This document shows, piece by piece, positions 3,937 through 64,000 of a DNA stretch of 64,000 nt. The DNA comes from Raja brachyura (taxonomy: Eukaryota). The DNA lies in contig OY740787.1 in the NCBI GenBank assembly GCA_963514005.1, forward strand, positions 72,416,001-72,480,000, written 5' to 3'. The stretch's first letter is position 1, and every line of letters begins with the position of its first letter. Below the pieces are notes generated by a model. That model did not search any database. It was not told the origin of the DNA and saw only the letters and a program-made list of their open reading frames with translations. Made by a program: the position numbers and the translations under genes.

Positions 3937-4810
3937 TGGGAATGCTAGAGTATAAAAGGATGGTTATTGATTTGAAGAGTTGGGACATCGTGTTGTACCT
4001 GTGCATGACATAGCTTAGGCCACACTTGGAATAATTTGTGCGTTTTTGGTCGCCAGACAACAAAGAGGATGTGACAGCACTAGCAAGAGTGCAGAAATCA
4101 TTCACCAGGGTGTCATGTAGGAAGGAACTGCAGATGCTGGTTGAAATCGAAGATAGACACAAAATGCTGGCGTGACTCAGCGGGACAGGCAGCAACTCTG
4201 GAGAGAAGGAATGGGTGATGTTTTGGATCAAGACCCTTCTTCAGACTTTTCCAACTACACAAAAATTGTTTAGTTTGAAGGTCTTGACCCGAAACGTCAC
4301 CCTTTCCTTCTCTCCAGAGATGCTGCCTGTCCCGCTGAGTTACACAGTATTTTGTGTCTCTCACCAAGGTGTTGCCTGGAATGATTGGATTTAGTTACAT
4401 GGAGAGACAGGATAGGTTGGGATTGTTCTGACTGTAGCACAGGAGGCTGAGAGATAACCTTGTGAAGGATTATAAAATTATTAGGGGCATAGAAAGGATA
4501 GATATTCAAAGTATTTTCTCAAGGGTCGGGGAGATCAGAAATTGTGCTCATAAGTTTATGATGAGAGGGGAAGTATTTAAAGAGGGTCTGAGGGGCAGGT
4601 TTCATGGATAGTGGTGGGTATATGGGAGAAGCTGCAAGAGGAGGTTGCTGAGCCAGGTACATCACAATATTTAAAAGTAATTTGGTCAGATGCATGGATA
4701 GGAAGGGAATAACTGATATGGGCAAGCTGGATTGGCATTGTTACGCATTGCAGTGTGCATGGATGATGCAGGCCGAAGGGCCTGCTTCCCTGCTGTGTGA
4801 CGCTCTAACC
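3937..4810 (+). mobile_element. Degenerate CR1 LINE 3' fragment interrupted by a Penelope-derived fold-back insertion
   Basis: Similar to the 3' part of the intact CR1 at 58.8-61 kb (aggccacacttggaata..., gtgcagaaatcattcaccagg, 3' UTR ggccgaagggcctg). Confidence 0.8.
4117..4340. mobile_element. Inverted pair of Penelope 3'-repeat (pLTR) copies
   Basis: About 90-bp inverted arms (gacacaaaatgctgg...cttcttcagact / gaaggtcttgacccgaaacgtcacc...ttttgtgtc); flanked by duplicated tcaccag/aggtgt. Confidence 0.8.
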
Positions 4811-6990: not shown

Positions 6991-7127
6991 GTCTAAGGTC
7001 TAAAAGTATTTTATTATAATGATTGTACCCTTGTATGTTAAGGTGGGGGGAGGGGGGTAGCAAAGGAAAATGATGTAGTGGAGGAGGTGAAATGTGATGA
7101 TGCACCAAAAAGGAGTCCGTGAGAAAT

Positions 7128-7225
7128 ATCACCTATTCATGTTGTCTGGATGAATCACCCATTGACTTACTCCAGCACTTTGTGTCTTTTTTTGGTAAAC
7201 CAGCATCTGCAGTTCCTTGTGTCTG
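7128..7225 (+). mobile_element. Penelope 3'-repeat fragment
   Basis: ttactccagcactttgtgtc...aaaccagcatctgcagttccttg, the same tail seen next to the PLE at 61.5-61.8 kb. Confidence 0.65.
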
Positions 7226-23407: not shown

Positions 23408-23815
23408 TGGGCACCACAGTGATGCAACAGAGACCAAGGTTCGCTCCTGACCTCTGGTGCAGTATGTGCGGCATTTAAGCATTTTCAGTTTGACCTCGTG
23501 GATCTCCCCCAGGTGCTCTGGTTTCCTCCAAGCTAAAGATGTACTTGGTTAATTAACTTGTATATTGCCTTGTGTTTGTGGATGGTAGTATAATCAGTGG
23601 AACTGATGGGTGCAAAAACAGACAGTGGGCTAAGGCAGATAGTACGATGATCCCCAAGGCTGGGTGAGGGACCTCACTGAAACCTGGTTGAAACCGGATG
23701 TGTAGGAAGGAACTGCAGATGCTGGTTTATACCGAAGATAGACACAAAGTGCTGAAGCAACTTAGCGGGTCAAGTAGCATCTGTGGAGAGAAGGACCAGG
23801 TGACATTTTGAGTCG
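23408..23815. mobile_element. Degenerate SINE (+, 23408-23590) followed by a Penelope 3'-repeat fragment (-, 23700-23815)
   Basis: ggtgctctggtttcctcca...aaagatgt; gtaggaaggaactgcagatgctggtttat. Confidence 0.6.
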
Positions 23816-25390
23816 GACTAAAAGTAGAGGTTGGTGGGGGGGGGGGGGGGGGAGGAGGAGGTGTTTGTGTGTGTGTGTATGTACGATATGGGTGAACTGG
23901 ACAATACCAGTCTCAGTGATCATTTGCAAATAAAAGAGACCTTCAGTGAATCTATGCCCAGATTGTGCGTGACAACCATTGCACAGACTGCAGGTAGTTC
24001 GAAACCTAATGCAGGATTATATATATTTGGCAAAAAGAACATTCAAATAACTTTTATAGCACATAGCACTGCAGAGTACGGCACAGTGGACATGAATTCC
24101 TTTATCGTATGTACTCACTGAGCATGCGGAGTAGAGATACATAAGGGGAAGTGTAGATGAGGGGTAGCATAAAAAACAATATATGCTTTGTATCTGGAAG
24201 TAGGACAGGAGAGCATCTGCCCTGGGATGGGTGTTTCCAAAGTTGGTCAATTTATACCAAAGAGGGTTTGTTCTCAAATAAACCCGGGCATGCACGTGAA
24301 TTTTACCCATCTGCATTGGGTATGCGCGAGAGAATAAGTTACAATAAAATAAGTGGGGGGATGGGAAAGATGTGATTGTATTCAGAGTGCTGAATGGTGC
24401 CTTTTGTGGCATGAGAAATATCAGAAATTTACAAATGGGAAACGGCGCTGAATAGTGTGTGGGGACGAGGAAGGGCAGGGTTGTACGGACGTTTAATATT
24501 TGGCTACAGGAAGAAAATGCAGGAAGTTGAGGACAGATAATGGACATGTACGTTTTTACGAGAGGCAGAAGGTAGGCACCGCTGTCTGGGAAAATGCTTA
24601 AATTGGTGGAGCAATAACTAACAGCTTTATCTCCAGGCAGACTGCATATTCTGCCAAAATGTAACAAAAGCACATAAAAAAATCTTGGTGCAATTCCCAA
24701 AGTGCGAAAACTGATTGGATGGTGATCTGTGTTCATTTAGCTATATGCTAATAGCGCATATATAAATTTGCATAATCCATATGTGTATTGTAGGTTGCCT
24801 GATGTGGCGGGAGTCCCCTGGGATGGCTGTATTAACCTTTATTTCGAAGGGAAGATGAGCCTCTGCTCCAGATGTTCTTTTGCGGGTCATTGTGCAGCAG
24901 ATGGTAACATTTTGTGACAGCCTGTCTTCTGAAGTGGAGGGTGGCAATGACAGCTCTCCTCTGCCAGACTCAGTTACACATGGCGAGGTCTGTAAATGTA
25001 GGTCGCAGGTTAATGACGGATGGAATTGAAACACCTTGAGTGTCATGGCACCTGTACTTGTTGGTTCCTCATGAAAATGTTGCCATCGCTTCCTGAGCCG
25101 TGTATGGCTATGCAAACCCACAAAGGAGTTTGCCTCCTCACAGTGCTTGGTTGTGCCGTTCACAAGGCTGCAGAACACAAAAATAATGAAGCAGAGTATT
25201 TGCAGAGGAAAATGTCAAAAAGTGCAAAAGTAGCAGAAGCAATTGATGCATGAAAGTCCCCCTGCGACCTACATACATGTTTTAACTATCAAATCTAATT
25301 ACGGCCATTGAAAATATAAAAGGGAAGGCAGGAAGCTGGGCATGCAGTTGGAGGCAAGGGATGGAAGGAGGAAGGAAGAGAAAAGCATAA

Positions 25391-26468: not shown

Positions 26469-26732
26469 AGGTGAGATTGGCGACCCAAAAAAATGCATAG
26501 TATTTTTTTGGGCAACAAACAATCTGCTGGAGGAACTCTGCAGGCCAACCATCCTTTGTTGAGGGAAATGAATTGTCAAAAAAAATGTTTTGGGTCCTTC
26601 AAATGTAATCATATCAACATTTCTCTCATCAGCATTTCTCTTCTGTTCAGAAATAGTATGGTCCATTTAAATCCCTCTCGTTGCTCAAAGATATTTTCTG
26701 GCTGAGACGAGCGCCAGACAACCTCCTACGTC

Positions 26733-29880: not shown

Positions 29881-29992
29881 AAGCCAATACTGATGGGCAC
29901 TGGAAAGCAGAGAAAATACTCACAGGGAAAATCATTTTTACATTGAGACGGGTAATGAGGATTTTAAACGGTCAAGAAGTATCACTTTGGAC

Positions 29993-30145
29993 CAAATTTG
30001 CTGGAGTAACTCAGCGAGCCAGAAAGCATCCGGCCCTGAAATGTCACCTATCCACGTCTCCCAGAGATGCTGCCAGACCCGCTGAGTTATTCCAGCACTT
30101 TGTGTCTTTTTTTTAATTTTAAAAGCATCTGCAGTTCCTTGTATC
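29993..30145. mobile_element. Penelope 3'-repeat fold-back
   Basis: tgctggagtaactcagcg ... cgctgagttattccagca inverted arms, then the agcatctgcagttcct tail. Confidence 0.7.
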
Positions 30146-32847: not shown

Positions 32848-33210
32848 TAGGAAGGAACTGCAGACACTGGTTTACACCGAAGATAGACACAAAATGCTGG
32901 AGTAACTTGTTTTCACTTAGCCCACAGCTAACAGTGGACCACTTCATTGATCATTGTTGCTTTTTTGCATATCTTTCATTTCCTTGTTCTATATTTTTCT
33001 ATAGTGCCAGTGCCAGTAGATGACCTTTCGGGTTGACACCATTCTTCAGACAGAGTCAGAGGAAATGGTATCTATATTACCATCTTTATCTCTTGTTTCC
33101 ATTTCCTCTGACTCTGTCTGAAGAATGGTGTCAACCCGAAAGGTCATCTACTCCTCTCCAGAGATGCTGCCTGTCCTGCTGAGTTACTCCAGCATTTTGT
33201 GTCTATCTTT
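32848..33210. mobile_element. Rearranged Penelope 3'-repeat cluster containing a perfect 53-bp inverted repeat
   Basis: Arms 33016-33068 and 33099-33151 are exact reverse complements; outer inverted gatagacacaaaatgctggagtaac. Confidence 0.8.
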
Positions 33211-35788: not shown

Positions 35789-36297
35789 TTAGCCTTGTAA
35801 TGAAAACCAACATGGATTTCTTGCTTGCCTCTCACTTTGCCCTTTTGTTTATTAATCCACTTTACTCCTGCCCATGATCATCCCCACTTATAAATGAAAC
35901 TATCACTTGGGATTCAATTCTGAAAGTTGTTTAATACAGTATGAAGCTTCAAGGTTAGTATGTCATAAGTTTGACAATGTCAATAGTACAAATATTTGTT
36001 GTTAACTGTTGATCTGAACATATCAGAGAAGGAAAGCTGTCTTGTGTTACATCAATCAACTAACTACACTTCAGGGTTGTTGATTAATAGTAGATCAATT
36101 TCCAATTAGACCTTGCCTCCTTGCGGTAAATGAAGTCCATGTGATGTGCCTTTTTCTAACATACAGACCACTTCCAGGTTACTGTTTGGAAACAAAGTAC
36201 AAGGTGCAGTTTAGAAGCAACATAATATTGTTCAAGGGCAGGGCCTAAATGTACATAATTAGACCCAGGATATGGGTTATTATCGGGTTAATGCTCT

Positions 36298-36680
36298 GAA
36301 AAAGACACAAGGTGCTGGAGTAACTCCACGGGTCAGGCACCATCTCGAGCACGTGGCGAGCACATGGGACCCTTCTCCAGACTGAGTGTGGTGGGGGGAG
36401 GGGGGTTAGTGTTGGAAGAAAGGAGGAGCAGAACCAAGGAAAGATGAAGTACAAATTGTGAAGTTAGCGGAAGAAAAATAGGTGGGAGGGGAGGGGAGAA
36501 ATGGGAATCCGTTCATATGGGGCACAGGGAAGAGTGAGGGGAGAGGGGGGGGGGGGGGGGGGGGGGGGTGTTGTGTTGTGGTGAGGTTTTTTTAACCTAA
36601 AATTGGAGAATTCAATGCTCATACCATTAGGTTGTAAACTACCCAAGTAGAATATTGAAGTTTGGTTGGAATTTGGAGCA
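36298..36680 (-). mobile_element. Penelope 3' remnant (GIY-YIG C-terminus plus 3' repeat)
   Basis: IFYLGSLQPNGMSIEFSNF matches IFRLGSLHPLGLNIEFSQF of the PLE at 62 kb. Confidence 0.75.
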
Positions 36681-41559: not shown

Positions 41560-43335
41560 ACACAAGAAACCGCAAAGATGCTGGAAAATGTGCTGGAGGA
41601 ACTCAGAGGTTCAAAATGCTGGAGGAACTCAAAGGGTCAGACAACATCCAGGTGAGGGAATGGATGGATTGCTTTTTTGGAACGGGACTCTTCCTCAGAC
41701 TGATGGAGTATGGGAGAGAAAGCTGGAAAAGAGATGTGGAAGGGGGATAAAGCTTTGTAAGTGATAGGGGGTGATTTTCAAATAGATGGCGATAATAGCA
41801 GAGGCAAGAGGTGAAAATGAGACAAAGCATGTCAGATAGGAGATACAAGATGGAGTGAAAAGTAAAGTCAAATGGAGGGATATAGATGGAAGTGGGCCAG
41901 GGGAAGGGGAACAAAGGGGAATAAAAAGGAAATGGGGGATGCGGGGTCTGGGAGATTAGCGTAGAAAGGAGAGAAAAGACGCGGTGTGACTGGGGGTGGG
42001 GTGGAAGATGATGGGAGAATAAATGCAGGTTTTCAGAGCCGTGTAACATAATAAAAAAAACAGGTTGAAGTTTAAGAAAATTGTCTTTAATTTAAAGAAG
42101 ACAAAAACCCAAACCTGATTTAAACAGTCAGGGACAAGAATTGACTAACAAATAAATATAACAGTGCTCCAGCCAGCCTCACAATGGACTGTCGAACCAG
42201 AGTCTCTAATCCTGCCTAAATGGAGATAACCCTGAAACAAAATACACAAAAACCCTCAGGTCAGCCCTTATCCGTCGCAATACAACATTAAATGACAAAT
42301 ATAGGTAACAATACACAAAGTTCTATGCCATGTGGCCAGGCCTCCTGCAGCTCACACCGGAAGCCTGTTCACTTGTCGGGGTCGACGAAGAAGAGAGAGA
42401 ATTCTGGGAACTCCCGGTATTTAAGTTTCCGATGAGTCAACTGTCACCTGCGCAGCTTGGCCAATCGGGTACAGACAATGGGGTTGGGAGGGAAAGATAG
42501 ATCAAGCATGATTGATTGGCAGAGCAGACGATGGGCTCAATGGCCTAATTCTGCTCTTATGACATGAACTTATGAATGCAGTAGATGAGTTTGGAAGAAA
42601 CGCACGTGAACTGATATAATCTCCAGAAGGGCTGCTGGGCTCCCTGGATGGAAAGGAAAGAGGCTGTGACCACCGAGGCCTGCTGGAGCTCCCTGTTACT
42701 AGCCATGTTAACTCCTGTTCTTATTTCCATACTGAACCTTCTACCCTTGGCCTCCCCCATTGCTAAAGAGAGACCAATTGCAAACTTTCAGACAATGCCT
42801 CATATTCTGCTTGGGTAGCCTGCAATCCAGCAGTATGAACATTGTATTCTCCAATTGCAACTAAGAACCCCCTATCACCACTTACTTTCCCCTTCACTCT
42901 GGTGCACACATATTTCTCCCACCATCTCCCATCTCCCAGTCACCCTGCTTCTTTCCCCTCCATTGTGCGCTCCTGTCTCATCCCAGAGACCCATATTTTG
43001 CTTTTATCCCTCCCCGTCCCATTCTACCCTTATCACTCCCTCCGATTTACATTTCACTCCACCCTTCCGCTCCTATCTGACACCCTGTTGTCTCCTTGTC
43101 ACTTCTTGCCTTTGTCACTTACTCCACCCATCTGCCAATCCCCACCTCCCATCTTTCTCACTCGTATTCACACATCACTTGCTAGAGTTTGTCCCACCCC
43201 CACCTCTCTTTTACAGCTTTCTACCCCTTTTGCCAGGCAGTCTGAAGCATGGTCCCGACGTGAAAGAAACCTGGCCAATTCCTCCATGCATTTTGCCTGA
43301 TCTGCTGGGTTCCTCCAGCATTTTGCTTTGCGTAC
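41560..43335. mobile_element. Divergent inverted pair of Penelope 3' remnants (- 41560-42030; + about 42620-43335)
   Basis: gcctcatattctgcttgggtagcctgcaatcc...aacattgtattctcc (GIY-YIG C-terminus), C/T-rich 3' UTR, tgctgggttcctccagcatttt tail; mirror copy on the left. Confidence 0.7.
42042..42477 (-). mobile_element. Possible solo LTR fragment
   Basis: Minus strand runs TGT...CCAAT/AP-1 (tgactca)/TTAAATA...ATTAAA...TGTTACA; no TSD found. Confidence 0.35.
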
Positions 43336-48629: not shown

Positions 48630-50660
48630 ACATAGAAACATAGAAACATAGAAATTAGGTGCAGGAGTAGGCCATTCGGCCCTTCGAGCCTGCACCGCCA
48701 TTCAATATGATCATGGCTGATCATCCAACTCAGTATCCTGTACCTGCCTTCTCCCCATACCCTCTGATCCCCTTAGCCACAAGGGCCACATCTAACTCCC
48801 TCTTAAATATAGCCAATGAACTGGCCTCAACTACCCTCTGTGGCAGAGAGTTCCAGAGACCCACTACTCTCTGTGTGAAAAAAGTCCTTCTCATCTCGGT
48901 CCTAAAGGATTTCCCCCTTATCCTTAAGCTGTGACCCCTTGTCCTGGACCTCCCCAACATCGGGAACAATCTTCCTGCATCTAGCCTGTCCAACCCCTTA
49001 AGAATTTTGTAAGTTTCTATAAGATCCCCTCTCAATCTCCTAGATTCTAGAGAGTATAAACCGAGTCTATCCAGTCTTTCTTCATAAGACAGTCCCGACA
49101 TCCCAGGAATCAGTCTGGTGAACCTTCTCTGCAGTCCCTCTATGGCAATAATGCCCTTCTTCAGATTTGGAGACCAGACCTGTACTCAATACTCCAGGTG
49201 TGGTCTCACCAAGACCCTATACAACTGAAGTAGAACCTCCCTGCTTTAATACTCAAATCCTTTTGCTATGAAAGTTAACATACCATTCGCTTTCTTCACT
49301 GCCTGCTGCACCTGCATGCCTACTTTCAATGACTGGTGTACCATGACACCCAGGTTGCGCTGCATCTCCCCTTTTCCTAATCGGCCACCATTTAGATAAT
49401 AGTCTGCTTTCCTATTTTTGCCACCAAAGTGGATAACCTCACATTTATCCACATTATACTGCATCTGCCAAACATTTGCCCACTCACCCAGCCTATCCAA
49501 GTCACCTTGCAGTCTCCTAGCATCCTTCTCACAGCTAACACTGCCCCCCAGCTTAGTGTCATCCGCAAACTTGGAGATATTGCCTTCAATTCCCTCATCC
49601 AGATCATTAATGTATATTGTAAATAGCTGGGGTCCCAGCACTGAGCCTTACGGTACCCCACTAGTCACTGCCTGCCATTGTGAAAACGACCCGTTTACTC
49701 CTACTCTTTGCTTCCTGTTTGCCAGCCAGTTCTCTATCGACATCAATACTGAACCCCCAATGCCGTATGCTTTAAGTTTGTATACTAATCTCTTATGTGG
49801 GACCTTGTCGAAAGCCTTCTGGAAGTCCAGATACACCACATCCACTGGTTCTCCCCTATCCACGCTACTAGTTACATCCTTGAAAAATTCCACAAGATTC
49901 GTCAGACCCTTGCACCAGGGAGGCAACATACCATCCTGGAGTCAGGTTTGCGGCCGCAGAAACGCCTATCTATTCCCCTGACAATAGAATCCCCTATTAC
50001 TATTGCCCTTCCCCTCTTTTCCCCCCCTCATGTGCTGCAGAGCCACCCATGGTGCCATGAACTTGGCTGCTGCTGCATTCCCCTGATGAGCCATCTCCCT
50101 CAACAGTATCCAAAATGGTATACCTGTTTAGGGAGATGACCGCAGGGGACTCCTGCACTACCTGCCTACTGCTTTGCTGGCTATTGGCCACCCGCTTCCT
50201 TTCTGTCCTCTTACCTTTTACCTGTGGCGTGACCAACTCGCTGTATGTGCTGTCCACGACTTTCTCTGCATCGTGGATACTCCAGTATGAATCCAGCCGC
50301 AGCTCCAATCGTTAAATGCGGTCTGCCAGGAGCTGCAGCTGGACACACCTCCTGCAAATGTAGTCACCAGGGACACCGACAATATCCCTGATCTCCCACA
50401 TGTTGCAGGCTGAGCAAACCATGGGGCCAATCTCTACTGACATATCTTACTCCCAAAGTACTCTGTATTAAATATATCTATATATTTATTTTTAATTTTT
50501 TATTTTTATTAAACACAAAACTTTATCCTTTAAACTTTACTAATAAATACTAATAAATACTGAATCCCTAACTCCCAGAATCCTTAAACCTGAAGGCAGA
50601 AATGTAAAAATGTAAACCCCGGGTTGCACCCAATCAGCTGCTTCCTCTGGTCCTCCTCAA
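48630..50660 (-). mobile_element. Internally deleted young CR1: 5'UTR/ORF1 N-half joined to the RT domain and 3' end
   Basis: 48630-49907 nearly identical to 58812-60078; 49908-50430 homologous to the ORF1 at 700-1190; (tttctatg)n tail. Confidence 0.9.
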
Positions 50661-52368: not shown

Positions 52369-53956
52369 GCCAGTATGACCATCACCCTCTTCATTTTTGC
52401 AGCGCTTTACTTGCTAACAATCAACTACAACAATGTCATCAAACCACCATGAACCGATCACTGTACGTGAAGGCATTGTTTCATTGACAGCGCTGGTGAC
52501 AAACCACCTTTCATCCACAACCTTTAACTTCACAGTCATCCAATCAGGCCTAGACCACTTCCTGCTCCTCCCTAAGTTTGCATAGCCATTGTTTCAACGT
52601 ATACTTGTTCCACAAAACTCATTTCTTCCTACCATAACTCGATATAATTCTTTCTCTATTTACGTAATCCCTTCCTGCTTACATCAATGACCTCTCCAAT
52701 GCCCTTCTGCACTTTCATAGCTCCTTGAACTGAACTTGTTTATTTTCACTATGAGCATCCAACTTTTTTACACCTCTTGCCAGCAAATTATACCTCTTAC
52801 ATTTCTTGCCAGCTTGCCTGAGAAGCTTTTTAATATTATGCCTTGGAGGTTGTAATTTGCCAGTCAGAAGAGGCCCAACTGCTCTTCTCCGCCAATACCT
52901 TTTCTTTTCTTGGGGAAATTTTGTAAGACATAGGAGCAGAATTAGGCCATTCAGTGCATGTTAGTTGAGGGATAAATATTGTTATGGAATAAGTCTTGAT
53001 ATTCTTATTTAGTGCAAGTGGTTCTTTTCTGCCGATGTAAATGGTTTGTCAGTACGCCTTTCAGCAGGGCCGGCCTTAGGAGGTGCGGGGCCCGATTGGG
53101 AAATTTTTTTTGGAGATATGTAAATAAATAATTATAAATGAGTCGCGTGTCGTGAGTAACATGACAATTGGGGGGAGAGTTCCTTTCACAGCGTGTGGGG
53201 AGTCTAGCCAGGGGTAACGTTGCGAGGAGGGAAGGAGCGTTGAGAAGGAGAGGGTCGGGGTTCATGCCAGTAACTCGCTCACTCACCGCTGCGCTCCGGG
53301 CGTGGAGCTACTGCATTGTGGCCGGGGAGGGAAGCAGCTCGCGTGGCTACAAGCGGCCTCCATCACCAGACAGCGGAACCGACTGCCGTCTCAGCGGCTT
53401 CTGCCGGCCCGCTCACCTCTGGCAGTGCTCTCCGTCTGAACAGTGAGGGGACCAGATCATAGAGCGGAGTGGGTCAGCGGGTGATGGATAACATCACAGC
53501 GGGCGGTGGAGCTTACTCCTGTGTCAGCGCGATCAAGGGATCAATTGAGGTTACTCGCACTGACACAGGAGTAAGCTCCACCGCCCGCTGCCCTGTTATC
53601 CATCACCTGCTGACCCGCTCTTGAGCTGGACGACCCTCTCCCCAGAGCCCCTGCCCGTCCCGCTGAGCCACCACAGACAGGGAGCTGAAGGTAGACACAG
53701 GGGGATCCACCTTCAACTTCAGAGCCAGACAAAAAACACAGAGTGCTGGAGGAACTCAGCGGGCAAGGCAGCACCCGAGGAGGGAACATATCACTTACGA
53801 GGAGCCGCCACGGGCCAGGACTCCCCCCCCCCCCCCCCCCACCCAACAGAAAGGAACCGCAGATGCAGCAATCACCGCAAAATGTCTAAGAAGGAACTGT
53901 GGATGTTGGAAAATCGAAGGTAGACAAAAATGCTGGAGAAACTCAGCGGGTGTGAA

Positions 53957-54875: not shown

Positions 54876-55763
54876 GACCTGGTGTCCTATATCACTATTG
54901 TATGCTCATGATGGAAATAAGAATACTCTGTATATTCATTACCTTTGAATTGTAGTTTTACGTAATCCTCCCATAAATTCTGGGTTCCATTTCACAATAT
55001 CTATCAGACATAGAGAATGTTGCAAGGTAATATCTTGCCCAAACTCAGTTGTATCTTTCTATCTCAATAAATATCACAAAATATGCCATTGTTTCAGCCA
55101 CATTATGACAAAATATAGAATGTAGGTTATTTGTTATCAGAAATCCCATCCCAGAAACAACAGTACTTAAAGAACATTTGTTTTACTAATTTATGAGCAT
55201 GTACCATAGGTTTATCCATATCCAACAAAATGTTGTGATAATTGCATAAAATGTATTATTGTCTAAGAAAGTTGGTGTGTGAATGATAATCCATCTCAGT
55301 ACTCATTTAGGCAAGTCCCAAACTATAGATACTTTCCCCAATCCCCCTCGCCCAATCTTCATTGAACCTACCATTTGACCGATCCTTTACTCAGCTGCTG
55401 TAACGTTTCCTTCCTATCAAAATCTGTGTGTAGCATCTCTGTCCCTATCTTCCAATTCCCACTTTGAAATAAAATACAACTTTCGACAAATATTTCGCAA
55501 TTGTAATGTACTGTATCATTAAAAAATACTACATCAACCAGGTGTGAAAATTACACTGAATCGAACGATGATTGAAAATGCGTGGGAATCGACGAATCGG
55601 GATCCTGCTGCGAAATGTTTAAGTCAAAAACTGTATTTTATTTCAAAATGGGAATTTGAAGATAGGAACAGAGATGCTACACAGAGATTTTAAGTTTTGG
55701 GTGAAGTCGCACAGTAGGACAGGGCTTGAGGCAGCATCTATGGAGCAAAGGAAAAAGCCGGGT

Positions 55764-55791
55764 CTGAAGAAGGGTTTCGACCCGAAACGTT
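55764..55791 (+). ncRNA. Minimal type I hammerhead ribozyme-like motif (Penelope-derived)
   Basis: CUGAAGA-A-GGGU(UUCG)ACCC-GAAA-CG-UU: intact core boxes, stem II with UUCG loop, palindromic ACGU in place of stem III. Confidence 0.6.
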
Positions 55792-55884
55792 GCATATTTC
55801 CTTCGCTCCATAGATGCTGCCTCACCCGCTAAGTTTCTCCATCACTTTTGTCTACCGCAAAACGTCAATGATTCCGGGAATGCC

Positions 55885-55965: not shown

Positions 55966-57811
55966 AAAGACGGAGATCGGTAGGTAAAGTGAATGACTAA
56001 CCTGCACTCCAAGAACTTCACCAAAAAGAAGTTAGTACTCATGATGATGAGTTTTAAGAAATTCTCAATGTGTCATCAATGCATCAATCTACATTCCAAA
56101 GTAAAATGTAATTATGTTTTGAAGCAGTGTTAATGACGCCGCGTGAATTGCATTCAAAGGAACGCAGCGTCATTAATACCTCATCTAAAACACAATTACA
56201 CATTTACTGAGGAATGTGGATCGATGCATTGATGACGCATTGGATAACTACTTTTGTTAACTACTAGCTGTTAACACAACTGGCTGTTAACACTACAGTG
56301 GGTAACACATTGTTTGTGTCTGATGACCGTACAGCGCTTGTATTCGATGTAAAAAAATCCATATGGCGAATGTTTTAAAAAAAATCTTTATTTGACAAAG
56401 CGAATTTGTATTTCCACATGAAATACGGAAAATTAACGCAGGGCCCCCCTTGGGCGCAGGGCACAATTTGGAAAAATCGGTCCAATCGGCCTAGGACCGG
56501 CCCTGCCTTTCAGTGTCTCCTCTGCTTGCTCTCTCAGCACTGTGCTAATCTGGACAGTCAGGTCTTTGAGGCAGGATTTGAACCTAGAATTTTCTGACAG
56601 GTGAGAATGCGATCACTTTGCAATAAAGAGAAATGTAAGAAATTGATGCGTCCATATGTCACTGCTTTAGAGGCATGTGTAACTTTTTTTCCTCTCCGAG
56701 AACCGGAGCTCAAAATTAATTTCTGATGTTCAGCATTAGTGCCAAAGCAGCTTAAATATTCATGCGTCACTCATTTTAAAAGTAAACCTTAACATAAGAC
56801 ACAACTTGACAATAACTTGTCAGCCTTTTTTAGAGCGGTAAAAAAAACTGAAGTGGTAAGCAAATTTGGGTGTATTTTGGGAACAGTATAAAAAGAACAT
56901 TATTGTGCAACTGAAGAGTTTACTGGTTTCCAACTGCATGAGATTTTGTGGTTTCAGCATTGACTCTGTGACCAAATGTAATCCAAGGCACAGGAGTGAT
57001 ATGAAGAACATATTGCAAACAAACACAACACTTTTGACCTATTTATTCTGCTGCATATATGGCAGGGACTTTGGGGCCCAGTTTCAGTTTGATTTTATTC
57101 AGTAGTGCCACGTAAACATTGCGCCGTGATCTGACAGCGAACTGTGGAGTTCAAGGGTTTCAAAACAAGAAGTGGCGAGAAGCATAGGTTGTAAGAATAA
57201 TTGACTAGAAAAATGTTTTTTTCAAAAGGCACATTAAACTAGCAATATGCACGGAAAGGTGGGGCGCATTTGCTGATAGGTTCATGGGCGCCTTGCAGAA
57301 TATTTCCTTTTATGTGAGGCTCAGTACATTGTGTGCAGTAGAATAAATCTTGTACTGAAAATGTATAGAGCGACCTCAGAACTTGGGTAGGAAGTAGAGG
57401 TGGAGGGATGTGGTTGACTGAGACCTCTTCTGTGGTTTGGGTGCTGGTTGGATATTGGTTGGATATTGGTTGGGATGTATTTCTAACTGGTAGAGGGGGT
57501 CCTATAAAATATTTAATTTCTGAAGAGGATGGTGTAGGTGCTAGAAGGGCAACTAATAGTAGAAATCTAAAAAGCTCATCTCAAGGAGGGTACATTTGTT
57601 GGATTTCACTGCCTCAGAGCTGGTCAAAGCAGTCTCTAAATTCCTAAGAAATGGGCTTTGCCCATCTTGTGATGGCAGTTTTCAAGGGGAGCTGACTGCT
57701 TAAATGAACACTTTGCATTTGATGTCAAAACATCTATCGCATCCCATGGAACACTTGGATACATCTGGAAGTAGACTTGATGGGCCAAATGGCCTTATTC
57801 TACTCCTATCC

Positions 57812-58706
57812 ATTGATTTGATTTGATTTTGATTTGATTTTATTGCTTGTCATTCGAACCTTAGAGAGGCTCGAACGAAACTCCGTTTCTACAACCAGAA
57901 CAATTCATACAAAACACACAAACAATTCAATTGACACAAACATCCATCACAGTGAATCTCCTCCTCACTGTGATGGAAGGCAAAGTCTTCTCTCTCCCCC
58001 GCACCATTTCTCTCCCGAGGTCGAAGCCCCAGACGGGCGGTGCCAAGTCCCACGGCCCTGGAGGCCGCGCTGGGCCGGGTGATGTACGGCCCCGCTCTAG
58101 GCCCAAAGTCACAGCGTTGGAGCCCCCGGCGGGCGCTGGAATGTCCCGCTGGAATTTCCCGCGGACACCGAAGCCGCGCCGGGCGATGTACGGCCCCGCT
58201 CCGGGTCGCTCCAACCCCGCGACACGGGCTGGAGAAGCTGTGTTGCGGGAGCTCCGGAGACCGGTCTCTCACCCGGACCCGCGAGCCCCCGATATCCCGA
58301 CAGTCCACCCGGAGTCGGGAGTCGGGCCGCAGCGGCGAGCCACCACCGCTCCCCACGCGGAGTTCCGGAGCCCGGAGTCGGGCTGCAGCGGCGAGCCACC
58401 ACCGCTCCCCACGTTCCGAGGCCGGCCAGCCCCACGATGGTGAGTCCGCAGCTCATCCCGGTCGGAGGCCGCTCCACTGTGCCAGGCCCACACGACAATG
58501 GAGACCCGACAGGGAAAAAAGTCGGGTCTCCCGTGCAGGGAAGAGACTCCAAAGTTTCCCCCCCCCCCCACCACCCCCCACACATACACAGTTAGGAACA
58601 CGATACAAAAAAAAAGACGAACAACTACATTTAACTAGACAAAAAATAAAAAAAAAGACAGACAGGCTGTAGGGGCCGCTGCAACGTGAGTCGCGCCCGC
58701 CCACCA
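57812..58706 (-). mobile_element. GC-rich non-coding retroposon, same family as 25391-26152
   Basis: (aatca)n tail, catcacagtga...tcactgtgatg hairpin, ggagacccgac/gtcgggtctcc hairpin, internal tandem gcagcggcgagccaccaccgctccccacg x2. Confidence 0.75.
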
Positions 58707-58811: not shown

Positions 58812-61004
58812 AAGAAACATAGAAATTAGGTGCAGGAGTAGGCCATTCGGCCCTTCGAGCCTGCACCGCCATTCAATATGATCATGGCTGATCATCCAAC
58901 TCAGTATCCCGTACCTGCCTTCTCTCCATATGCTCTGATCCCCTTAGCCACAGGGGCCACACCTAATTCCCTCTTAAATATAGCCAATGAACTGGCCTCA
59001 ACTACCCTCTGTGGCAGAGAGTTCCAGAGACCCACCACTCTCTGTGTGAAAAAAGTCCTTCTCATCTCGGTCCTAAAGGATTTCCCCCTTATCCTTAAGC
59101 TGTGACCCCTTGTCCTGGACCTCCCCAACATCGGGAACAATCTTCCTGCATCTAGTCTGTCCAACCCCTTAAGAATTTTGTAAGTTTCTATAAGATCCCC
59201 TCTCAATCTCCTAAATTCTAGAGAATATAAACTGAGTCTATCCAGTCTTTCTTCATAAGACAGTCCTGACATCCCAGGAATCAGTCTGGTGAACCTTCTC
59301 TGCACTCCCTCTATGGCAATAATGTCCTTCCTCAGATTTGGAGACAAGAACTGTACGCAATACTCCAGGTGTGGTCTCACCAAGACCCTATACAACTGAA
59401 GTAGAACCTCCCTGCTCCTATACTCAAATCCTTTTGCTATGAAAGCTATCATACCATTCGCTTTCTTCACTGCCTGCTGCACCTGCATGCCTACTTTCAA
59501 TGACTGGTGTACCATGACACCCAGGTCGCGCTGCATCTCCCCTTTTCCTAATCGGCCACCATTTAGATAATAGTCTGCTTTCCTATTTTTGCCACCAAAG
59601 TGGATAACCTCACATTTATCCACATTATACTGCATCTGCCAAACATTTGCCCACTCACCCAGCCTATCCAAGTCACCTTGCAGTCTCCTAGCATCCTCCT
59701 CACAGCTAACACTGCCCCCCAGCTTAGTGTCATCCACAAACTTGGAGATATTGCCTTCAATTCCCTCATCCAGATCATTAATGTATATTGTAAATAGCTG
59801 GGGTCCCAGCACTGAGCCTTGCGGTACCATACTAGTCACTGCCTGCCATTGTGAAAACGACCCGTTTACTCCTACTCTTTGCTTCCTGTTTGCCAGCCAG
59901 TTCTCTATCCACATCAATACTGAACCCCCAATGCCGTATGCTTTAAGTATATATACTAATCTCTTATGTGGGGCCTTGTCGAAAGCCTTCTGGAAGTCCA
60001 GATACACCACATCCACTGGTTCTCCCCTATCCACGCTACTAGTTACATCCTCGAAAAACTCCACAAGATTCGTCAGACATGACTTACCTTTCGTAAATCC
60101 ATGCTGACTTTGTCCAATAATTTCACCACTTTCCAAATGTGCTGCTATCCCATCTTTAATAACTGACTCTAGCAGTTTCCCCACTACCGATGTTAGACTA
60201 ACTGGCCTGTTATTCCCCGTTTTCTCTCTCCCCCCCTTCTTAAAAAGAGTGGTTACGTTTGCTACCCGCCAATCCTCAGGAACTACTCCAGAATCTAAAG
60301 AGTTTTGAAAGATTATCACTAATGCATCCACTATTTCCGGAGCTACTTCGTTAAGTACTCTGGGATGCAGCCTATCTGGCCCTGGGGATTTATCGGCCTT
60401 TAATCCATTCAATTTACCCAACACCACTTCCCGACTAACCTGGATTTCACTCAAGTCCTCCTTTGACCCGCGGTCCCCTGCTATTTCCGGCAGATTATTT
60501 ATGTCTTCCTTAGTGAAGACGGAACCAAAGTTGTTATTCAATTGGTCCGCCATATCCTTGTTCCCCATGATCAACTCACCTGTTTCTGACTGCAAGGGAC
60601 CTACATTTGTTTTAACTAATCGTTTTCTCTTCACACATCTATAAAAACTTTTGCAGTCAGTTTTTATGTTCCCTGCCAGTTTTCTTTCATAATCTATTTT
60701 TCCTTTCCTAATCAAGCCCTTTGTCCTCCTCTGCTGGTCTCTGAATTTCTCCCAGTCCTCTGGCATGCTGCTTTTTCTGGCTACTTTGTACGCATCATCC
60801 TTTGCTTTGATACTATCCCTGATTTCCCTTGTTATCCACGGATGCACTACCTTCCCTGATCTATTCTTTTGCCAAACTGGGATGAACAATTTTTGTAGTT
60901 CATCCATGCAGTCTTTAAATGTCTTCCATTGCGTATCCACCGTTAACCCTTTTAGAATTGATTGCCAGTCAATCTTGGCCAATTCACATCTCATACCCTC
61001 AAAG
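58812..61004 (-). mobile_element. Young 5'-truncated CR1 LINE
   Basis: Contains the open ORF2 RT and complete 3' UTR/tail. Confidence 0.95.
58901..60994 (-). CDS. CR1 ORF2 reverse transcriptase (lacks N-terminal endonuclease; 697 aa uninterrupted)
   Basis: KSPGPD, RPVSLTS, QHGF, YLDFQKAFD, VPQGSVLGP, KFVDD, LVRPHLEYC motifs. Confidence 0.93.
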   Translation of the reverse strand: MRCELAKIDWQSILKGLTVDTQWKTFKDCMDELQKLFIPVWQKNRSGKVVHPWITREIRDSIKAKDDAYKVARKSSMPEDWEKFRDQQRRTKGLIRKGKIDYERKLAGNIKTDCKSFYRCVKRKRLVKTNVGPLQSETGELIMGNKDMADQLNNNFGSVFTKEDINNLPEIAGDRGSKEDLSEIQVSREVVLGKLNGLKADKSPGPDRLHPRVLNEVAPEIVDALVIIFQNSLDSGVVPEDWRVANVTTLFKKGGREKTGNNRPVSLTSVVGKLLESVIKDGIAAHLESGEIIGQSQHGFTKGKSCLTNLVEFFEDVTSSVDRGEPVDVVYLDFQKAFDKAPHKRLVYILKAYGIGGSVLMWIENWLANRKQRVGVNGSFSQWQAVTSMVPQGSVLGPQLFTIYINDLDEGIEGNISKFVDDTKLGGSVSCEEDARRLQGDLDRLGEWANVWQMQYNVDKCEVIHFGGKNRKADYYLNGGRLGKGEMQRDLGVMVHQSLKVGMQVQQAVKKANGMIAFIAKGFEYRSREVLLQLYRVLVRPHLEYCVQFLSPNLRKDIIAIEGVQRRFTRLIPGMSGLSYEERLDRLSLYSLEFRRLRGDLIETYKILKGLDRLDAGRLFPMLGRSRTRGHSLRIRGKSFRTEMRRTFFTQRVVGLWNSLPQRVVEASSLAIFKRELGVAPVAKGIRAYGEKAGTGY

Positions 61005-61125
61005 TAATAATTAGTTTTTAAAATTTAAATTCCTTTGCACAGAGAGTCAAATGTTGCATTACACAAAGTAATTGCTCACATTCTTAAAATAATATTTCAG
61101 TATTTCCAAATTTACGATGTCTGCT

Positions 61126-61374: not shown

Positions 61375-61575
61375 TTCCTGTGGCATGGGGTAGTTTACTG
61401 CCCAAGGGTATGAATATTGAAGTCTCCAATTTTAGGTAAAAAATTTAGAAAAAGGGTTTTGATCTGAAACATCACCCATTCCTTCTGTCTAGATGCTGCC
61501 TGTCCTGCCGAGTTACTCCAGCATTTTGTATCTATCTTTGGTGTAAACCAGCATCTGCAGTTCCTTCCTATACAT
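61375..61575 (+). mobile_element. Penelope 3' remnant, tail-to-tail with the large PLE
   Basis: gggtagtttactgcccaagggtatgaatattgaagtctccaattttagg followed by the 3' repeat. Confidence 0.7.
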
Positions 61576-61737
61576 TTCTGAAAATTAGAGATTCGCTATT
61601 CAGGAGAGAAAAGCTAATTGGACCAGATTCTTAGGAGCCCAGATGGATGTCCAACCCTACTTCAATACTGGGGGTTACACAAAAAGCTGGAGAAACTCAG
61701 CGGGTGCAGCAGCATCTAAGGGGCGAAGGAGATAGGC

Positions 61738-61765
61738 GACATTTCGGGTCGAGACCCTTCTTCAG
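61738..61765 (-). ncRNA. Minimal hammerhead ribozyme-like motif in the PLE 3' repeat
   Basis: Minus strand: CUGAAGA-A-GGGU(CUCG)ACCC-GAAA-UG-UC-G. Confidence 0.6.
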
Positions 61766-62003
61766 ACTGGTCAGGGATCAGGGAAACGAGAGATATAAAC
61801 AGTGATGTGGAGAGATAAGGAACAATGAGTGAAAGATATGCAAAAAAGTATTGGTGACAAAGGAAGCAGGCCATTGTAAGCTGTTTGTGGTGTGAAAATG
61901 AGAAGCTAGCGCGACTGGGGAGGGGGGGGGGGGGGGGGGGGAGATGGAGAAGGAATGTCAGGGCCAGAGGGCTGAGGGAGAGGTGGGGGGGAGGCAGTCT
62001 GGG

Positions 62004-62440
62004 TTAACAGAATTGAGAAAATTCAATGTTTAAGCCCAGAGGATGCAGACTCCCCAAGCGGAATATGAGGTGCTGTTCCTCAAACTTGCGGTGTTGATCA
62101 CTCTGGCCGTGGAGGAGGCCCAGGACCGAGAGGTCGGATACGCAGTGGGAGGGGGAGTTGAAGTGCTGAGCCACCGGGAGGTCGGGTTGGTTATTGCGGA
62201 CCGAGCGGAGGTGTTCGGCGAAACGATCGCCCAGCCTCCGCTTGGTCTCACCGATGTAGATCAGCTGGCATCTGGAGCAACGGATGCAGTAGATGAGGTT
62301 GGAGGAGGTGCAGGTGAACCTCTGTCGGACTTGGAATGACTGCTTGGGTCCCTGAAAGGAGTGGATGGGGGAGGTGAAGGGACAAGTGTAGCATCTCTTG
62401 CGGTTGCAAGGGAAAGTACCCGGGGAAGGAGTGGAGCGGG
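62004..62440 (-). CDS. PLE Cys linker + GIY-YIG endonuclease (frameshifted relative to RT)
   Basis: CNRKRCYTC linker; NLIYCIRCSRCQLIYIGET...RFAEH...VAQHF...GLN. Confidence 0.9.
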
Positions 62441-63771
62441 AGGGAAGAATTGACGAGGGAGTTGCGGAGGGAGCGGTCTTTGCGGAAGGCAGACAGGGGG
62501 GGAGATGGGAAGATGTGGCGAGTGGAGGGGTCACGTTGGAGGTGACGAAACTGGCGGAGGACTATCTGTTGTATGCGCTGGCTGGTGGGGTGAAAGGTGA
62601 GGACCAGGGGGACTCGGCCCTTGTTGTGAGTGGGGGAATGGGGAGAGAGGGCAGTGTTGCGGGGTATGGAGGAGACCCTGGTGCGAGCCTCATCTATAGT
62701 GGGGGAGGAGAAACCCCGTTCTCTGAAGAACGAGGACATTTGCGATGACCTGGTGTGGAACACGTCATCCTGGGAGCAGATGCGGCGTAGACGGAGGAAT
62801 TGGGAATAGGGGATGGAGTCCTTACAGGAAGCAGGGTGGGAGGAAGAGTAGTCCAGGTAGCTGTGGGAGTCAGTTGGTTTGTAGTGGATGTCAATCAGGA
62901 GTGTATCACCTGCAATAGAGATGGTGAGGTCAAGGAATGGTAGGGAAATGTCGGAAATGGTCCAAGTATATTTGAGTGCCGGATGGAAGTTGGTGGTGAA
63001 ATGGATGAAGTCAGTCAGTTCTGCGTGGGTGCAGGAGGCGACACCAAAGCAGTCGTCAATGTAACGGAGGTAAAGGTCGGGGGTGGGGCCCTGGTACGCC
63101 GAGAACAAAGATTGTTCGACGTGCCCGACAAAGAGGCAGGTGTAGCTAGGGCCCATGCGTGTGCCCATAGCTACGCCTTGTGTTTGGAGGAAATGGGAGG
63201 AGTCAAAAGAAAAGTTGTTGAGGGTAAGGACCAACTCTGCTAGGCGGAGGAGGGTGTCAGTGGATGGGTATGGGTTGCTCCTCTGGTCGAGGAAGTACCG
63301 GAGGGCTTTGAGACCATCCTGGTGGGGGATGCAGGTGTATAGTGACTGGACGTCCATGGTGAAGATGAGAGGATGGGGGCCTGGACAACGGAATGTGCGG
63401 AGCCGACGGAGAGTGTCTGAGGTGTCTTGAACATAGGTGGGGAGGGATTTAACAAAGGGGGATAGGATGGAGTCAAGGTATGTGGAAATGTGTTCGGTGG
63501 GGCACGAACAGGCAGAGACAATGAGTCTGCCGGGGCAGTCGGGTTTGTGGATTTTGGGGAGAAGGTAAAATCGGGCTGTGCGGGGCTGGGGAACGATGAG
63601 GTTGGAGGCTCGGGGGGGTAAGGAGCCGGAGTTGATGAAGCCGGTTATGGTGCTCGAGATGGTGGCCTGGTGCTCGTCAGTGGGGTCATGGTCCAGGGGT
63701 AAGTAGGAGGAGGTGTCCGAGAGTTGGCGCGTGGCCTCTGCTTTGTAGAGATCGACGTGCCAGACTACCAC
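62248..63771 (-). CDS. PLE reverse transcriptase (true frame ends near 62445)
   Basis: FYLLPKIHK, DVQSLYT, QTQGVAMGTRMGP, YLRYIDD, LPFLDL, YKPTDSHSYL. Confidence 0.93.
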   Translation of the reverse strand: MVVWHVDLYKAEATRQLSDTSSYLPLDHDPTDEHQATISSTITGFINSGSLPPRASNLIVPQPRTARFYLLPKIHKPDCPGRLIVSACSCPTEHISTYLDSILSPFVKSLPTYVQDTSDTLRRLRTFRCPGPHPLIFTMDVQSLYTCIPHQDGLKALRYFLDQRSNPYPSTDTLLRLAELVLTLNNFSFDSSHFLQTQGVAMGTRMGPSYTCLFVGHVEQSLFSAYQGPTPDLYLRYIDDCFGVASCTHAELTDFIHFTTNFHPALKYTWTISDISLPFLDLTISIAGDTLLIDIHYKPTDSHSYLDYSSSHPASCKDSIPYSQFLRLRRICSQDDVFHTRSSQMSSFFRERGFSSPTIDEARTRVSSIPRNTALSPHSPTHNKGRVPLVLTFHPTSQRIQQIVLRQFRHLQRDPSTRHIFPSPPLSAFRKDRSLRNSLVNSSLPLHSFPGYFPLQPQEMLHLSLHLPHPLLSGTQAVIPSPTEVHLHLLQPHLLHPLLQMPADLHR

Positions 63772-64000
63772 AGCACCTCCCTTGTCGGCGGGTTTGATAA
63801 CCCAGTCTGGGTTGTTGCGGAGTGAGTCGATGGCAATACGTTCGGAGGGGGAGAGATTGGAGTGAGACAGGGGAGTGGAGAAGTCGAGGCGGTTGATGTC
63901 CCGACGGCAGTTCTGAATAAAGAGTTGTAAAGCTGGAGGGCCACGAGGGGGGGTCCACGAGGAGGGGGTACGTGGGAGACAGGAAAAGGGATCATCAGTG

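What the first reader, a model, noticed from the sequence alone, without database searches (positions are those of the whole stretch)
61375..64000. Penelope element plus a window-wide swarm of its hammerhead-bearing 3' repeat: a ribozyme/retroelement system
Seen: downstream of the GIY-YIG ORF the element carries CUGAAGA-A-GGGUcucgACCC-GAAA-(C/U)GUC followed by a conserved ~100-nt tail. The same unit recurs more than ten times in the window (about 4.2, 7.2, 23.7, 30.0, 33.0, 36.3, 41.6, 43.3, 53.8, 55.8, 61.5 and 61.7 kb), mostly without coding DNA and often inverted. Known: PLE terminal repeats encode minimal type I hammerheads lacking a stable helix III, proposed to cleave as dimers, and non-autonomous retrozymes exploit such motifs. 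Inference: this genome hosts a very high-copy, Neptune-mobilised mini-hammerhead retroposon. If the window is intronic, the copies could influence host pre-mRNA through cleavage or dsRNA formation.
Basis: partly seen in the sequence, partly recalled or inferred. Interest (0 to 1): 0.7.

Follow-up and report, generated by a model that had tools for sequence, protein, structure and literature searches.

The report
Fish Penelope element with hammerhead-bearing ends
This is a young copy of a known kind of jumping gene in a shark or ray relative, and the many short repeats around it are likely short copies of that gene's RNA start rather than a separate self-cutting element; their ends suggest that the copying enzyme starts on both DNA strands at two fixed places.

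Summary
All 12 listed repeats are present (21 hits, 0 in reversed DNA). They are the pseudo-LTR unit of a Neptune-type Penelope-like element (PLE), with a minimal hammerhead of a published kind. The window is not special: about 1.1 million copies are estimated genome-wide, 50,608 with an exact core. The interpretation needs correcting. In intact 1,200-codon elements the unit is the 5' UTR. Short copies mostly start at the hammerhead's 5' edge (53 of 100), hardly ever at the GUC cut site (1 of 100). Only 2 of 21 window hits keep an intact motif, helix I has 2 bp, and catalytic G12 decays like other CpG sites. Close tandem pairs are rare, so this is not a retrozyme. Head-to-head pairs are single insertions: 13 of 16 carry a target duplication, and all 16 have one short and one long 3' end, which suggests priming on both target strands. 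The window probably lies between genes; this insertion ends 435 bp before an integrin alpha-4 start codon and is absent from two other organisms. Cleavage itself was not testable. This scan reached a similar reading on other DNA of this genome (59 notes).

The parts
62410..64000 (-). Reverse-transcriptase part of a 5'-truncated PLE ORF. It continues to extended position 64197; beyond that lies an inverted pseudo-LTR with tail (64198-64503) and the second target-duplication copy (64504-64519).
   Evidence: 96.8% protein identity to residues 556-1087 of an intact 1,221-residue frame
62004..62456 (-). CX4CX2C linker and GIY-YIG endonuclease, out of frame with the RT in this copy (5 nt shorter in the linker than an intact copy)
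61770..62003 (-). Pyrimidine-rich 3' UTR, the upstream part of the pseudo-LTR; differs between subfamilies
61738..61765 (-). Minimal type I hammerhead core (CUGAAGA, bulged A, 4-bp stem II with tetraloop, GAAA-U-GUC; helix I 2 bp). The preferred 5' edge of short copies lies at 61763-61769.
61672..61737 (-). Conserved stretch after the core, predicted to form a hairpin; ends at the shorter of the two preferred 3' ends (no tail)
61656..61671 (+). Left copy of the 16-bp target-site duplication; single copy at the empty site in two other organisms
61388..61577 (+). Separate older PLE fragment: last codons of the ORF joined to a decayed unit with tail (8 of 11 core bases)
   Evidence: sequence
4122..4367 (.). 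Head-to-head pair, one arm with tail; cores broken; inserted in a CR1-like fragment
7120..7218 (+). Decayed unit with tail, core largely lost
23707..23816 (-). Decayed unit with tail, 5' part lost
26507..26596 (-).
29985..30140 (.). Head-to-head pair, cores lost
32852..33210 (.). Inverted arrangement with 3' UTR pieces; both cores keep 11 of 11 bases but the first stem II pair is broken
36295..36660 (-). Older 5'-truncated PLE: ORF end, 3' UTR and decayed unit
41577..41702 (-). Decayed unit with a partial direct duplication
43238..43333 (+). Decayed unit
53730..53952 (-). Two 3' fragments without the hammerhead core
55705..55853 (.). Head-to-head pair; the plus arm has an intact core of the GUU / UUCG-loop subfamily

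Best explanation
This is a young, 5'-truncated insertion of a Neptune-type Penelope-like retrotransposon, and the short repeats are likely run-off copies of the start of that element's RNA. Shown: in full-length copies the hammerhead unit plus tail is the 5' UTR, about 165 nt before the ATG; copies have two preferred 3' ends about 35 nt apart and one preferred 5' edge at the first letters of the hammerhead; head-to-head pairs sit inside one target duplication with one arm ending at each 3' site. Inferred: the RNA usually begins at the initiator-like YCAGTC just before CUGA. The RT-endonuclease binds this 5' UTR, nicks both target strands about 11-17 bp apart and primes each at one of two internal RNA sites, as shown in vitro for the Anolis element. 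On the RNA's first unit the cDNA runs off after 100-135 nt, giving solo units and hairpin pairs; on a downstream unit of a read-through RNA it copies back into the ORF, giving long copies like this one. The hammerhead is probably kept in source elements and at most cuts weakly with protein help; the dispersed copies are mostly dead.
For: Full-length anatomy: 20 of 20 fetched copies (chosen for long open frames) have frames of 1,161-1,372 codons with YIDD and GIY motifs, and 12 of the 20 have the unit directly before the ORF; 14 ORFs are 96-99.9% identical. 5' edges of the first 100 young copies picked by a downstream 31-mer, counted by eye: 41 run on upstream, 42 start at unit positions 1-6, 11 at 7-13, 4 at 14-32, 1 at the cut site, 1 at 34-50. 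Genome-wide, 4,590 and 7,074 edges at -3 and -2 against 208 raw at the cut site, 87 three bases before it and 183 three bases after it. Junctions pile up at the same edge in contigs of three organisms. 3' ends cluster at 94-100 and 131-138 in 79 young copies; 15 of 32 solos have a target duplication of 7 bp or more, control 36 of 992. Head-to-head neighbours 63 against 17 expected; one tail in 39 of 55 pairs, p = 0.0009; 16 of 16 young pairs have one tail and 13 of 16 a duplication of 11-17 bp. Two internal RT starts, extension of both strands and insertion without hammerhead cleavage were reported for the Anolis PLE (PMC11167929).
Against: No RNA end was seen: only assembled contigs were available, so the transcription start is inferred from DNA copies. 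The same YCAG after a pyrimidine tract also reads as a splice acceptor, and in Drosophila Penelope the intron ends at helix I and the start lies upstream (PMC4209133, PMC2377424). A G is over-represented before the edge (51 of 100 and 62 of 100), but many cases come from inversions or small duplications, so it does not prove a cap. Non-CpG core bases match the profile slightly better than invariant downstream bases (0.941 against 0.911, p = 4e-5), which could mean some selection or an alignment-edge bias. In vitro the Anolis RT showed no strand preference for its two starts, unlike the one-of-each rule here. Six of the 42 edge entries are three repeats of one pair, and the young samples come from the first 4 Mb of one contig.
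Confidence: 0.68

Rival explanations
1. The short units are a separate non-autonomous retroposon or retrozyme: a small RNA cut out by its hammerheads, perhaps circularised, and copied by the PLE enzyme.
For: Most units have no coding DNA: 27 of 282 have an ORF remnant within 700 bp upstream. They have fixed ends and their own target duplications. 1,339 close direct pairs exist. Animal retrozymes were proposed to derive from PLE pseudo-LTRs (bioRxiv 2026.07.22.740005).
Against: A cut-and-circle unit should begin after GUC or be permuted; 1 of 100 does and the cut site shows no clear excess over neighbours. Short copies carry the same subfamily letters as full-length elements. Direct neighbours are not enriched (32 against 35 expected), only 2 of 32 keep both cores, and spacings vary from about 50 to 280 nt.
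Confidence: 0.1
2. The anatomy is as described, but the shared 5' edge is not a transcription start. It is a splice junction, a trimmed RNA end, or a point where RNA structure or bound protein stops the RT.
For: A pyrimidine tract plus YAG precedes the core in all 14 UTR-bearing variants listed; Drosophila Penelope has an intron ending at helix I (PMC4209133). Edges spread over positions 1-13.
Against: Solos share no upstream exon sequence; unique flank or target duplication follows at once. RT passes the site freely in 41 of 100 copies and rarely stops in the next 60 nt. Small duplications and jumps back at this point fit a template end.
Confidence: 0.17
3. The hammerhead is an active, protein-assisted or dimer ribozyme that trims read-through RNA of tandem source elements. 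Cut RNA loses part of its 5' UTR and is seldom copied, so it leaves little trace in DNA. This is compatible with the best explanation but gives cleavage a real role.
For: Subfamily variants avoid the core: 0 of 10 non-CpG core positions vary against 19 of 58 downstream, p = 0.03. Variants near the core keep pairing or stay within the NUH rule. The palindromic ACGU allows a dimer helix III. The Anolis hammerhead cuts when protein is added (PMC11167929). A few short arrays restart at the cut site.
Against: Helix I is 2 bp in 12 of 14 listed variants and 0 in the other 2; the forced monomer fold is 7 kcal/mol less stable than the free fold. Two units of a full-length element are about 4 kb apart. 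Of 12 full-length copies with an upstream unit, 8 run through it into the 3' UTR and none starts at the cut site. Restarts also occur three bases downstream. No compensatory double changes were seen in stem II.
Confidence: 0.35

Closest known systems
Minimal hammerheads (min-HHR) in pseudo-LTRs of metazoan PLEs, Cervera and De la Pena 2014 (PMC4209133; parts 1-2 of 4 read, figures and supplements not seen)
   Same: Same core, bulged base after A9, G10.1-C11.1 pair, palindromic 15.2/16.2, mostly single dispersed motifs, some close pairs on opposite strands; reported from Neptune elements of fishes.
   Different: Helix II is 4 bp and helix I 2 bp, against 7-8 and 4-5 bp in the Schistosoma families (2 bp occurs in Drosophila virilis). 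One exact 28-mer occurs 50,608 times, against about 4,000 and 9,000 motifs in coelacanth and Xenopus. No cartilaginous fish is mentioned in the parts read.
Neptune-clade EN+ Penelope-like elements (Craig et al. 2021, PMC8557442; 12 passages read)
   Same: One RT plus C-terminal GIY-YIG ORF, cysteine linker motif, DKG motif, partial tandems, inverted 5' copy, 30-40-bp tail at one end only.
   Different: About 1.1 million short fragments, 3.6% of sampled DNA; clear 11-17-bp target duplications; a sharp 5' edge at the hammerhead is not described in the passages read.
Poseidon element of Anolis carolinensis, PAc (Frangieh et al. 2024, PMC11167929; parts 1-2 of 4 read)
   Same: Two internal RT starts that define the tail, extension of both target strands, hammerhead at the pseudo-LTR/ORF junction, uncut RNA used for insertion.
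   Different: Different clade. In PAc the starts lie inside the ORF; here they lie in the 5' UTR. PAc showed no strand difference in start site; here each pair uses one of each.
Animal non-LTR retrozymes (PMC7229834, 12 passages; bioRxiv 2026.07.22.740005, parts 1-3 of 5)
   Same: Non-coding, hammerhead-bearing, related to PLE pseudo-LTRs, many monomers.
   Different: Retrozymes are head-to-tail arrays of 150-450-bp units, mostly with canonical hammerheads and circular RNA. Here units are solo or head-to-head, the motif is minimal, and tandems are rare with irregular spacing.

Membership tests
EN+ Penelope-like element | Single ORF with RT and C-terminal GIY-YIG endonuclease | tested here: met
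   Intact 1,221-residue frame with both Pfam matches, each below the curated cut-off; motifs. The window copy itself is truncated and frameshifted.
EN+ Penelope-like element | Pseudo-LTRs, inverted 5' copy and a 30-40-bp tail at one end | tested here: met
Neptune clade | CX2-5CXXC linker between RT and endonuclease | tested here: met
   CNRKRCYTC at residue 1088; motif definition from PMC8557442
Neptune clade | Placement in an RT tree with named Neptune and Nematis references | not testable with these tools
   No named references were held. Neptune is by elimination: only Neptune and Poseidon were reported in vertebrates, and the linker motif is given only for Neptune and Nematis.
Minimal type I hammerhead (min-HHR) | CUGANGA and GAAA boxes, NUH site, helix II, palindromic 15.2/16.2 | tested here: met
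   28 of 117 core-spanning sampled hits and 2 of 21 window hits. Rfam has no matching hammerhead model.
Minimal type I hammerhead (min-HHR) | Helix I of 4-5 bp | tested here: not met
   2 bp in 12 of 14 listed variants, 0 in 2; a 2-bp helix I is published for Drosophila virilis
Minimal type I hammerhead (min-HHR) | Self-cleavage after NUH as dimer or with protein | not testable with these tools
   No raw reads were offered; copy ends show no clear excess at the site
Non-LTR retrozyme | Head-to-tail arrays with a complete hammerhead in consecutive units | tested here: not met
   None in the window; 2 of 32 close direct neighbours keep both cores; 1,339 irregular close pairs genome-wide, some of which would pass a two-unit definition
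Non-LTR retrozyme | Unit-length linear and circular RNA | not testable with these tools
   contigs only
SINE-like non-autonomous partner | Own 5' sequence and own master lineage distinct from the autonomous element | tested here: not met
   Short copies match the full-length 5' UTR and begin in unique flank; no tree of copies was built

The most novel reading that the evidence does not exclude
The genome holds a million-copy record of how a PLE inserts: the RNA starts at the hammerhead, one enzyme dimer primes both target strands, always one at each of two fixed RNA sites, and most events abort by running off the RNA start. The tail, the inverted repeats and the scattered minimal hammerheads of many animals would then all be products of one two-ended reaction, and the hammerhead would serve mainly as RNA start and protein-binding fold.
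Probability: 0.45. Interest if true: 0.62.

Novelty: new member of a known kind. Interest (0 to 1): 0.4.

Why it matters
The element class and its hammerhead are known. What this family adds is scale and youth: many intact, near-identical ORFs and about a million short copies make end positions countable. They bear on two open points in the papers read: why PLEs carry hammerheads, and how tandem and inverted insertions with a one-sided tail arise. The counts favour two-strand priming from uncut RNA. They also warn that solo minimal hammerheads in animal genomes need not be retrozymes. For the host, 3.6% of sampled DNA is this unit, a third of it in hairpin pairs, and this insertion sits next to an integrin alpha-4 start.

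Tried and rejected
Rfam found no hammerhead model, only chance microRNA hairpin matches below cut-off. The bare motif search was at chance. No solved structure matched the full-length protein by sequence. A conserved or programmed RT-endonuclease frameshift was suspected because the best 150 matches shared the offset; rejected, since the query selected such copies and intact frames are common. A cap-derived G at the 5' edge was looked for; the G excess is confounded by inversions and duplications. A spliced first exon was looked for among solos and not found. A 30-nt junction found 340 times looked like a non-autonomous derivative; it is a set of units nested in a 3-kb DNA transposon. RNA ends, circles, editing and expression could not be tested: 24 runs were offered, all as contigs, and the best RNA label is a guess. 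Strand bias in introns was not tested for lack of annotation. The DNA further upstream than 20 kb was not read, and no full exon scan of the window was made. Searches for the end pattern in print found no paper on it; the library is partial, repeat databases were not searchable, and supplements of the papers were not seen, so the family may already be catalogued.

Full report
Setting. The window lies on contig C7 of a 2.70-Gb genome. The closest named relatives of the RT are shark and ray proteins at 66-74% identity, so the host is an elasmobranch. Exon 1 of an integrin alpha-4 gene starts at extended position 64954 on the plus strand. The nearest ubiquitin-conjugating-enzyme exons found lie 176 kb before the window. 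The gene order UBE2E3-ITGA4 is recalled from other vertebrates. The window is therefore probably intergenic; a non-coding transcript is not excluded and no full exon scan was made.

The element. The minus strand carries RT and GIY-YIG coding DNA, a 234-nt pyrimidine-rich 3' UTR, the hammerhead-like core (61738-61765) and a conserved stretch ending at 61672. Past the window the body stops at 64197 and is followed by an inverted copy of the 3' UTR and unit, with a tail, ending at 64503. The same 16 bp stand on both sides. In two other organisms single contigs join the two flanks with one copy of the 16-mer (runs X20 and X22), so this is a true target duplication and a recent insertion. A contig of a third organism carries 23 letters of the element side, which suggests but does not prove presence. 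The copy is 96.3% identical to an intact element and is out of frame in the linker. The stretch 61388-61577 is a separate older fragment on the plus strand.

The swarm. A profile built from sampled copies finds 21 hits in the window, including all 12 named places, and none in reversed DNA. In 76 stretches of 10 kb from eleven large contigs it finds 307 hits, 4.04 +/- 0.37 per 10 kb, or about 1.1 million genome-wide and 3.6% of the sampled DNA. One exact 28-mer occurs 50,608 times, control 0. Only 27 of 282 hits with room upstream have an ORF remnant there.

Full-length elements. Twenty copies chosen for long open frames all hold RT and GIY motifs in one frame; 14 of them are 96-99.9% identical. 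In 12 of the 20 the unit with its tail lies directly before the ORF, the ATG about 165 nt after the core's start. The CX4CX2C linker marks Neptune or Nematis (PMC8557442, passages); only Neptune and Poseidon were reported in vertebrates (bioRxiv 2026.07.22.740005). No tree with named references could be built.

Ends of copies. Numbering the unit so that C3 is position 5 and the cut product would start at 33: of the first 100 young copies picked by a downstream 31-mer (46,301 in all), counted by eye, 41 run on upstream, 42 start at 1-6, 11 at 7-13, 4 at 14-32, 1 at 33 and 1 at 34-50 (six entries are three repeats of one pair). Of 79 young copies among 92 with an exact core, 47 extend 0-6 nt upstream of C3, 2 extend 7-14 and 30 extend further (13 older copies were dropped). 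Genome-wide patterns give 4,590 and 7,074 edges just before the core (one-mismatch filter). With a two-mismatch filter there are 87, 208 and 183 raw hits at positions 30, 33 and 36. By eye about 32 of 87, 39 of the first 100 and 11 of the first 100 are mutated or deleted longer copies, leaving roughly 55, 125 and 160. The cut site thus lies between its neighbours and about 25-40 times below the 5' edge; rare cleavage is neither shown nor excluded. 3' ends cluster at 94-100 and 131-138, matching the two internal RT starts that define the tail in the Anolis element (PMC11167929).

Inverted pairs. Neighbours within 400 bp are head-to-head in 63 cases against 17 expected, tail-to-tail in 18 against 17, and direct in 32 against 35. 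Of 55 tight pairs, 39 have exactly one tail (expected 27, p = 0.0009). Among 16 young pairs all have one short and one long arm, and 13 have an 11-17-bp duplication around the pair. The window's own element follows the same rule. In contigs of three organisms the best-supported joints link the two units at this same 5' edge. One-sided tails and inverted copies are known descriptively; I read the rule as priming of both target strands, one at each RNA site. That step is inference.

Is the hammerhead under selection? In dispersed copies catalytic G12, which lies in a CpG, matches in 150 of 215 cases, like other CpG guanines (499 of 688, p = 0.44). Non-CpG core bases match at 0.941 against 0.911 for invariant downstream bases (p = 4e-5); this difference is against my reading, though alignment edges and minor subfamily alleles may cause it. 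At the level of source elements, none of 10 non-CpG core positions carries a common variant against 19 of 58 downstream positions (p = 0.03), so the motif is probably kept in active lineages. 28 of 117 core-spanning hits are intact. Helix I has only 2 bp and the forced monomer fold is -5.1 against -12.2 kcal/mol free. Published minimal hammerheads cut poorly even as dimers (PMC4209133), and the Anolis one cuts only with protein and is not needed for insertion in vitro.

Retrozyme test. No tandem array of the unit lies in the window. Genome-wide there are 1,339 close direct pairs with spacings from about 50 to 280 nt, many restarting at the same 5' edge. They look like copying stutters. Some would meet the two-unit definition of the 2026 preprint, in which 8 of 9 tested dimers did not cut.

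Mechanism. Shown: anatomy, end clusters, target duplications, one-of-each tails, neutral decay of G12. Inferred: the RNA begins at the initiator-like YCAGTC (consensus recalled); the protein primes both nicked strands at two internal sites; copying of the first unit runs off after 100-135 nt; copying from a downstream unit of read-through RNA gives long copies. An internal promoter in the pseudo-LTR is published for Drosophila Penelope, though there the start lies upstream of an intron (PMC2377424, passages).

Earlier notes. I wrote this reading down before consulting the scan's notes. 59 notes on other DNA of this genome fit; 8 were shown, and most reach the same reading. They are not independent support. 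One claims rare self-cleavage, which prompted; two describe tandems, which prompted. None lies near this window.

Verdict. A new member of a known kind. The ribozyme-swarm reading is not supported; the value lies in the countable ends. Interest 0.4.

Noticed in passing
window 61672 to extended 64519 (L263:1672-4519); start codon at L011:954: The insertion ends 435 bp before the start codon of an integrin alpha-4 gene and is absent at this site in two other organisms. It could affect that promoter; untested.
   Followed up: partly
L264:1754-4721 and L251-L270: A 3-kb non-coding element with terminal inverted repeats and an apparent 8-bp target duplication (hAT-like, label recalled) carries several nested PLE units; one of its junctions occurs 340 times, so part of the swarm spreads as passengers.
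   Followed up: partly
window 58901-61024 (-) and 48733-49905 (-): Young CR1-like LINE copies; the first has a 707-codon open frame with an RT domain.
   Followed up: partly
window 53448-53635: A long near-perfect GC-rich hairpin of unknown origin; Rfam gives only chance microRNA matches.
   Followed up: no
window 56108-56233: An inverted repeat of about 60 bp per arm, like a miniature DNA transposon.
   Followed up: no
L248, about 2.6-3.1 kb before its ORF frame: A tandem array with a 54-nt period made from unit positions 38-96, without the hammerhead core; similar 61-63-nt arrays start at the cut site.
   Followed up: partly
L011:4522-4621 (+): An intact core of the GUU subfamily lies in sense orientation after exon 2 of the integrin gene, probably in an intron; the gene's extent was not mapped.
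   Followed up: no
window 28541-28621 (-): An isolated 27-codon piece of PLE RT with no unit beside it.
   Followed up: no
best matches: At least 150 copies are out of frame in the C-rich RT-endonuclease linker, probably an indel hot spot; intact frames are also common.
   Followed up: partly
window 57865-58700: A GC-rich repeat-like stretch with a short internal duplication, flanked by simple repeats; not identified.
   Followed up: no
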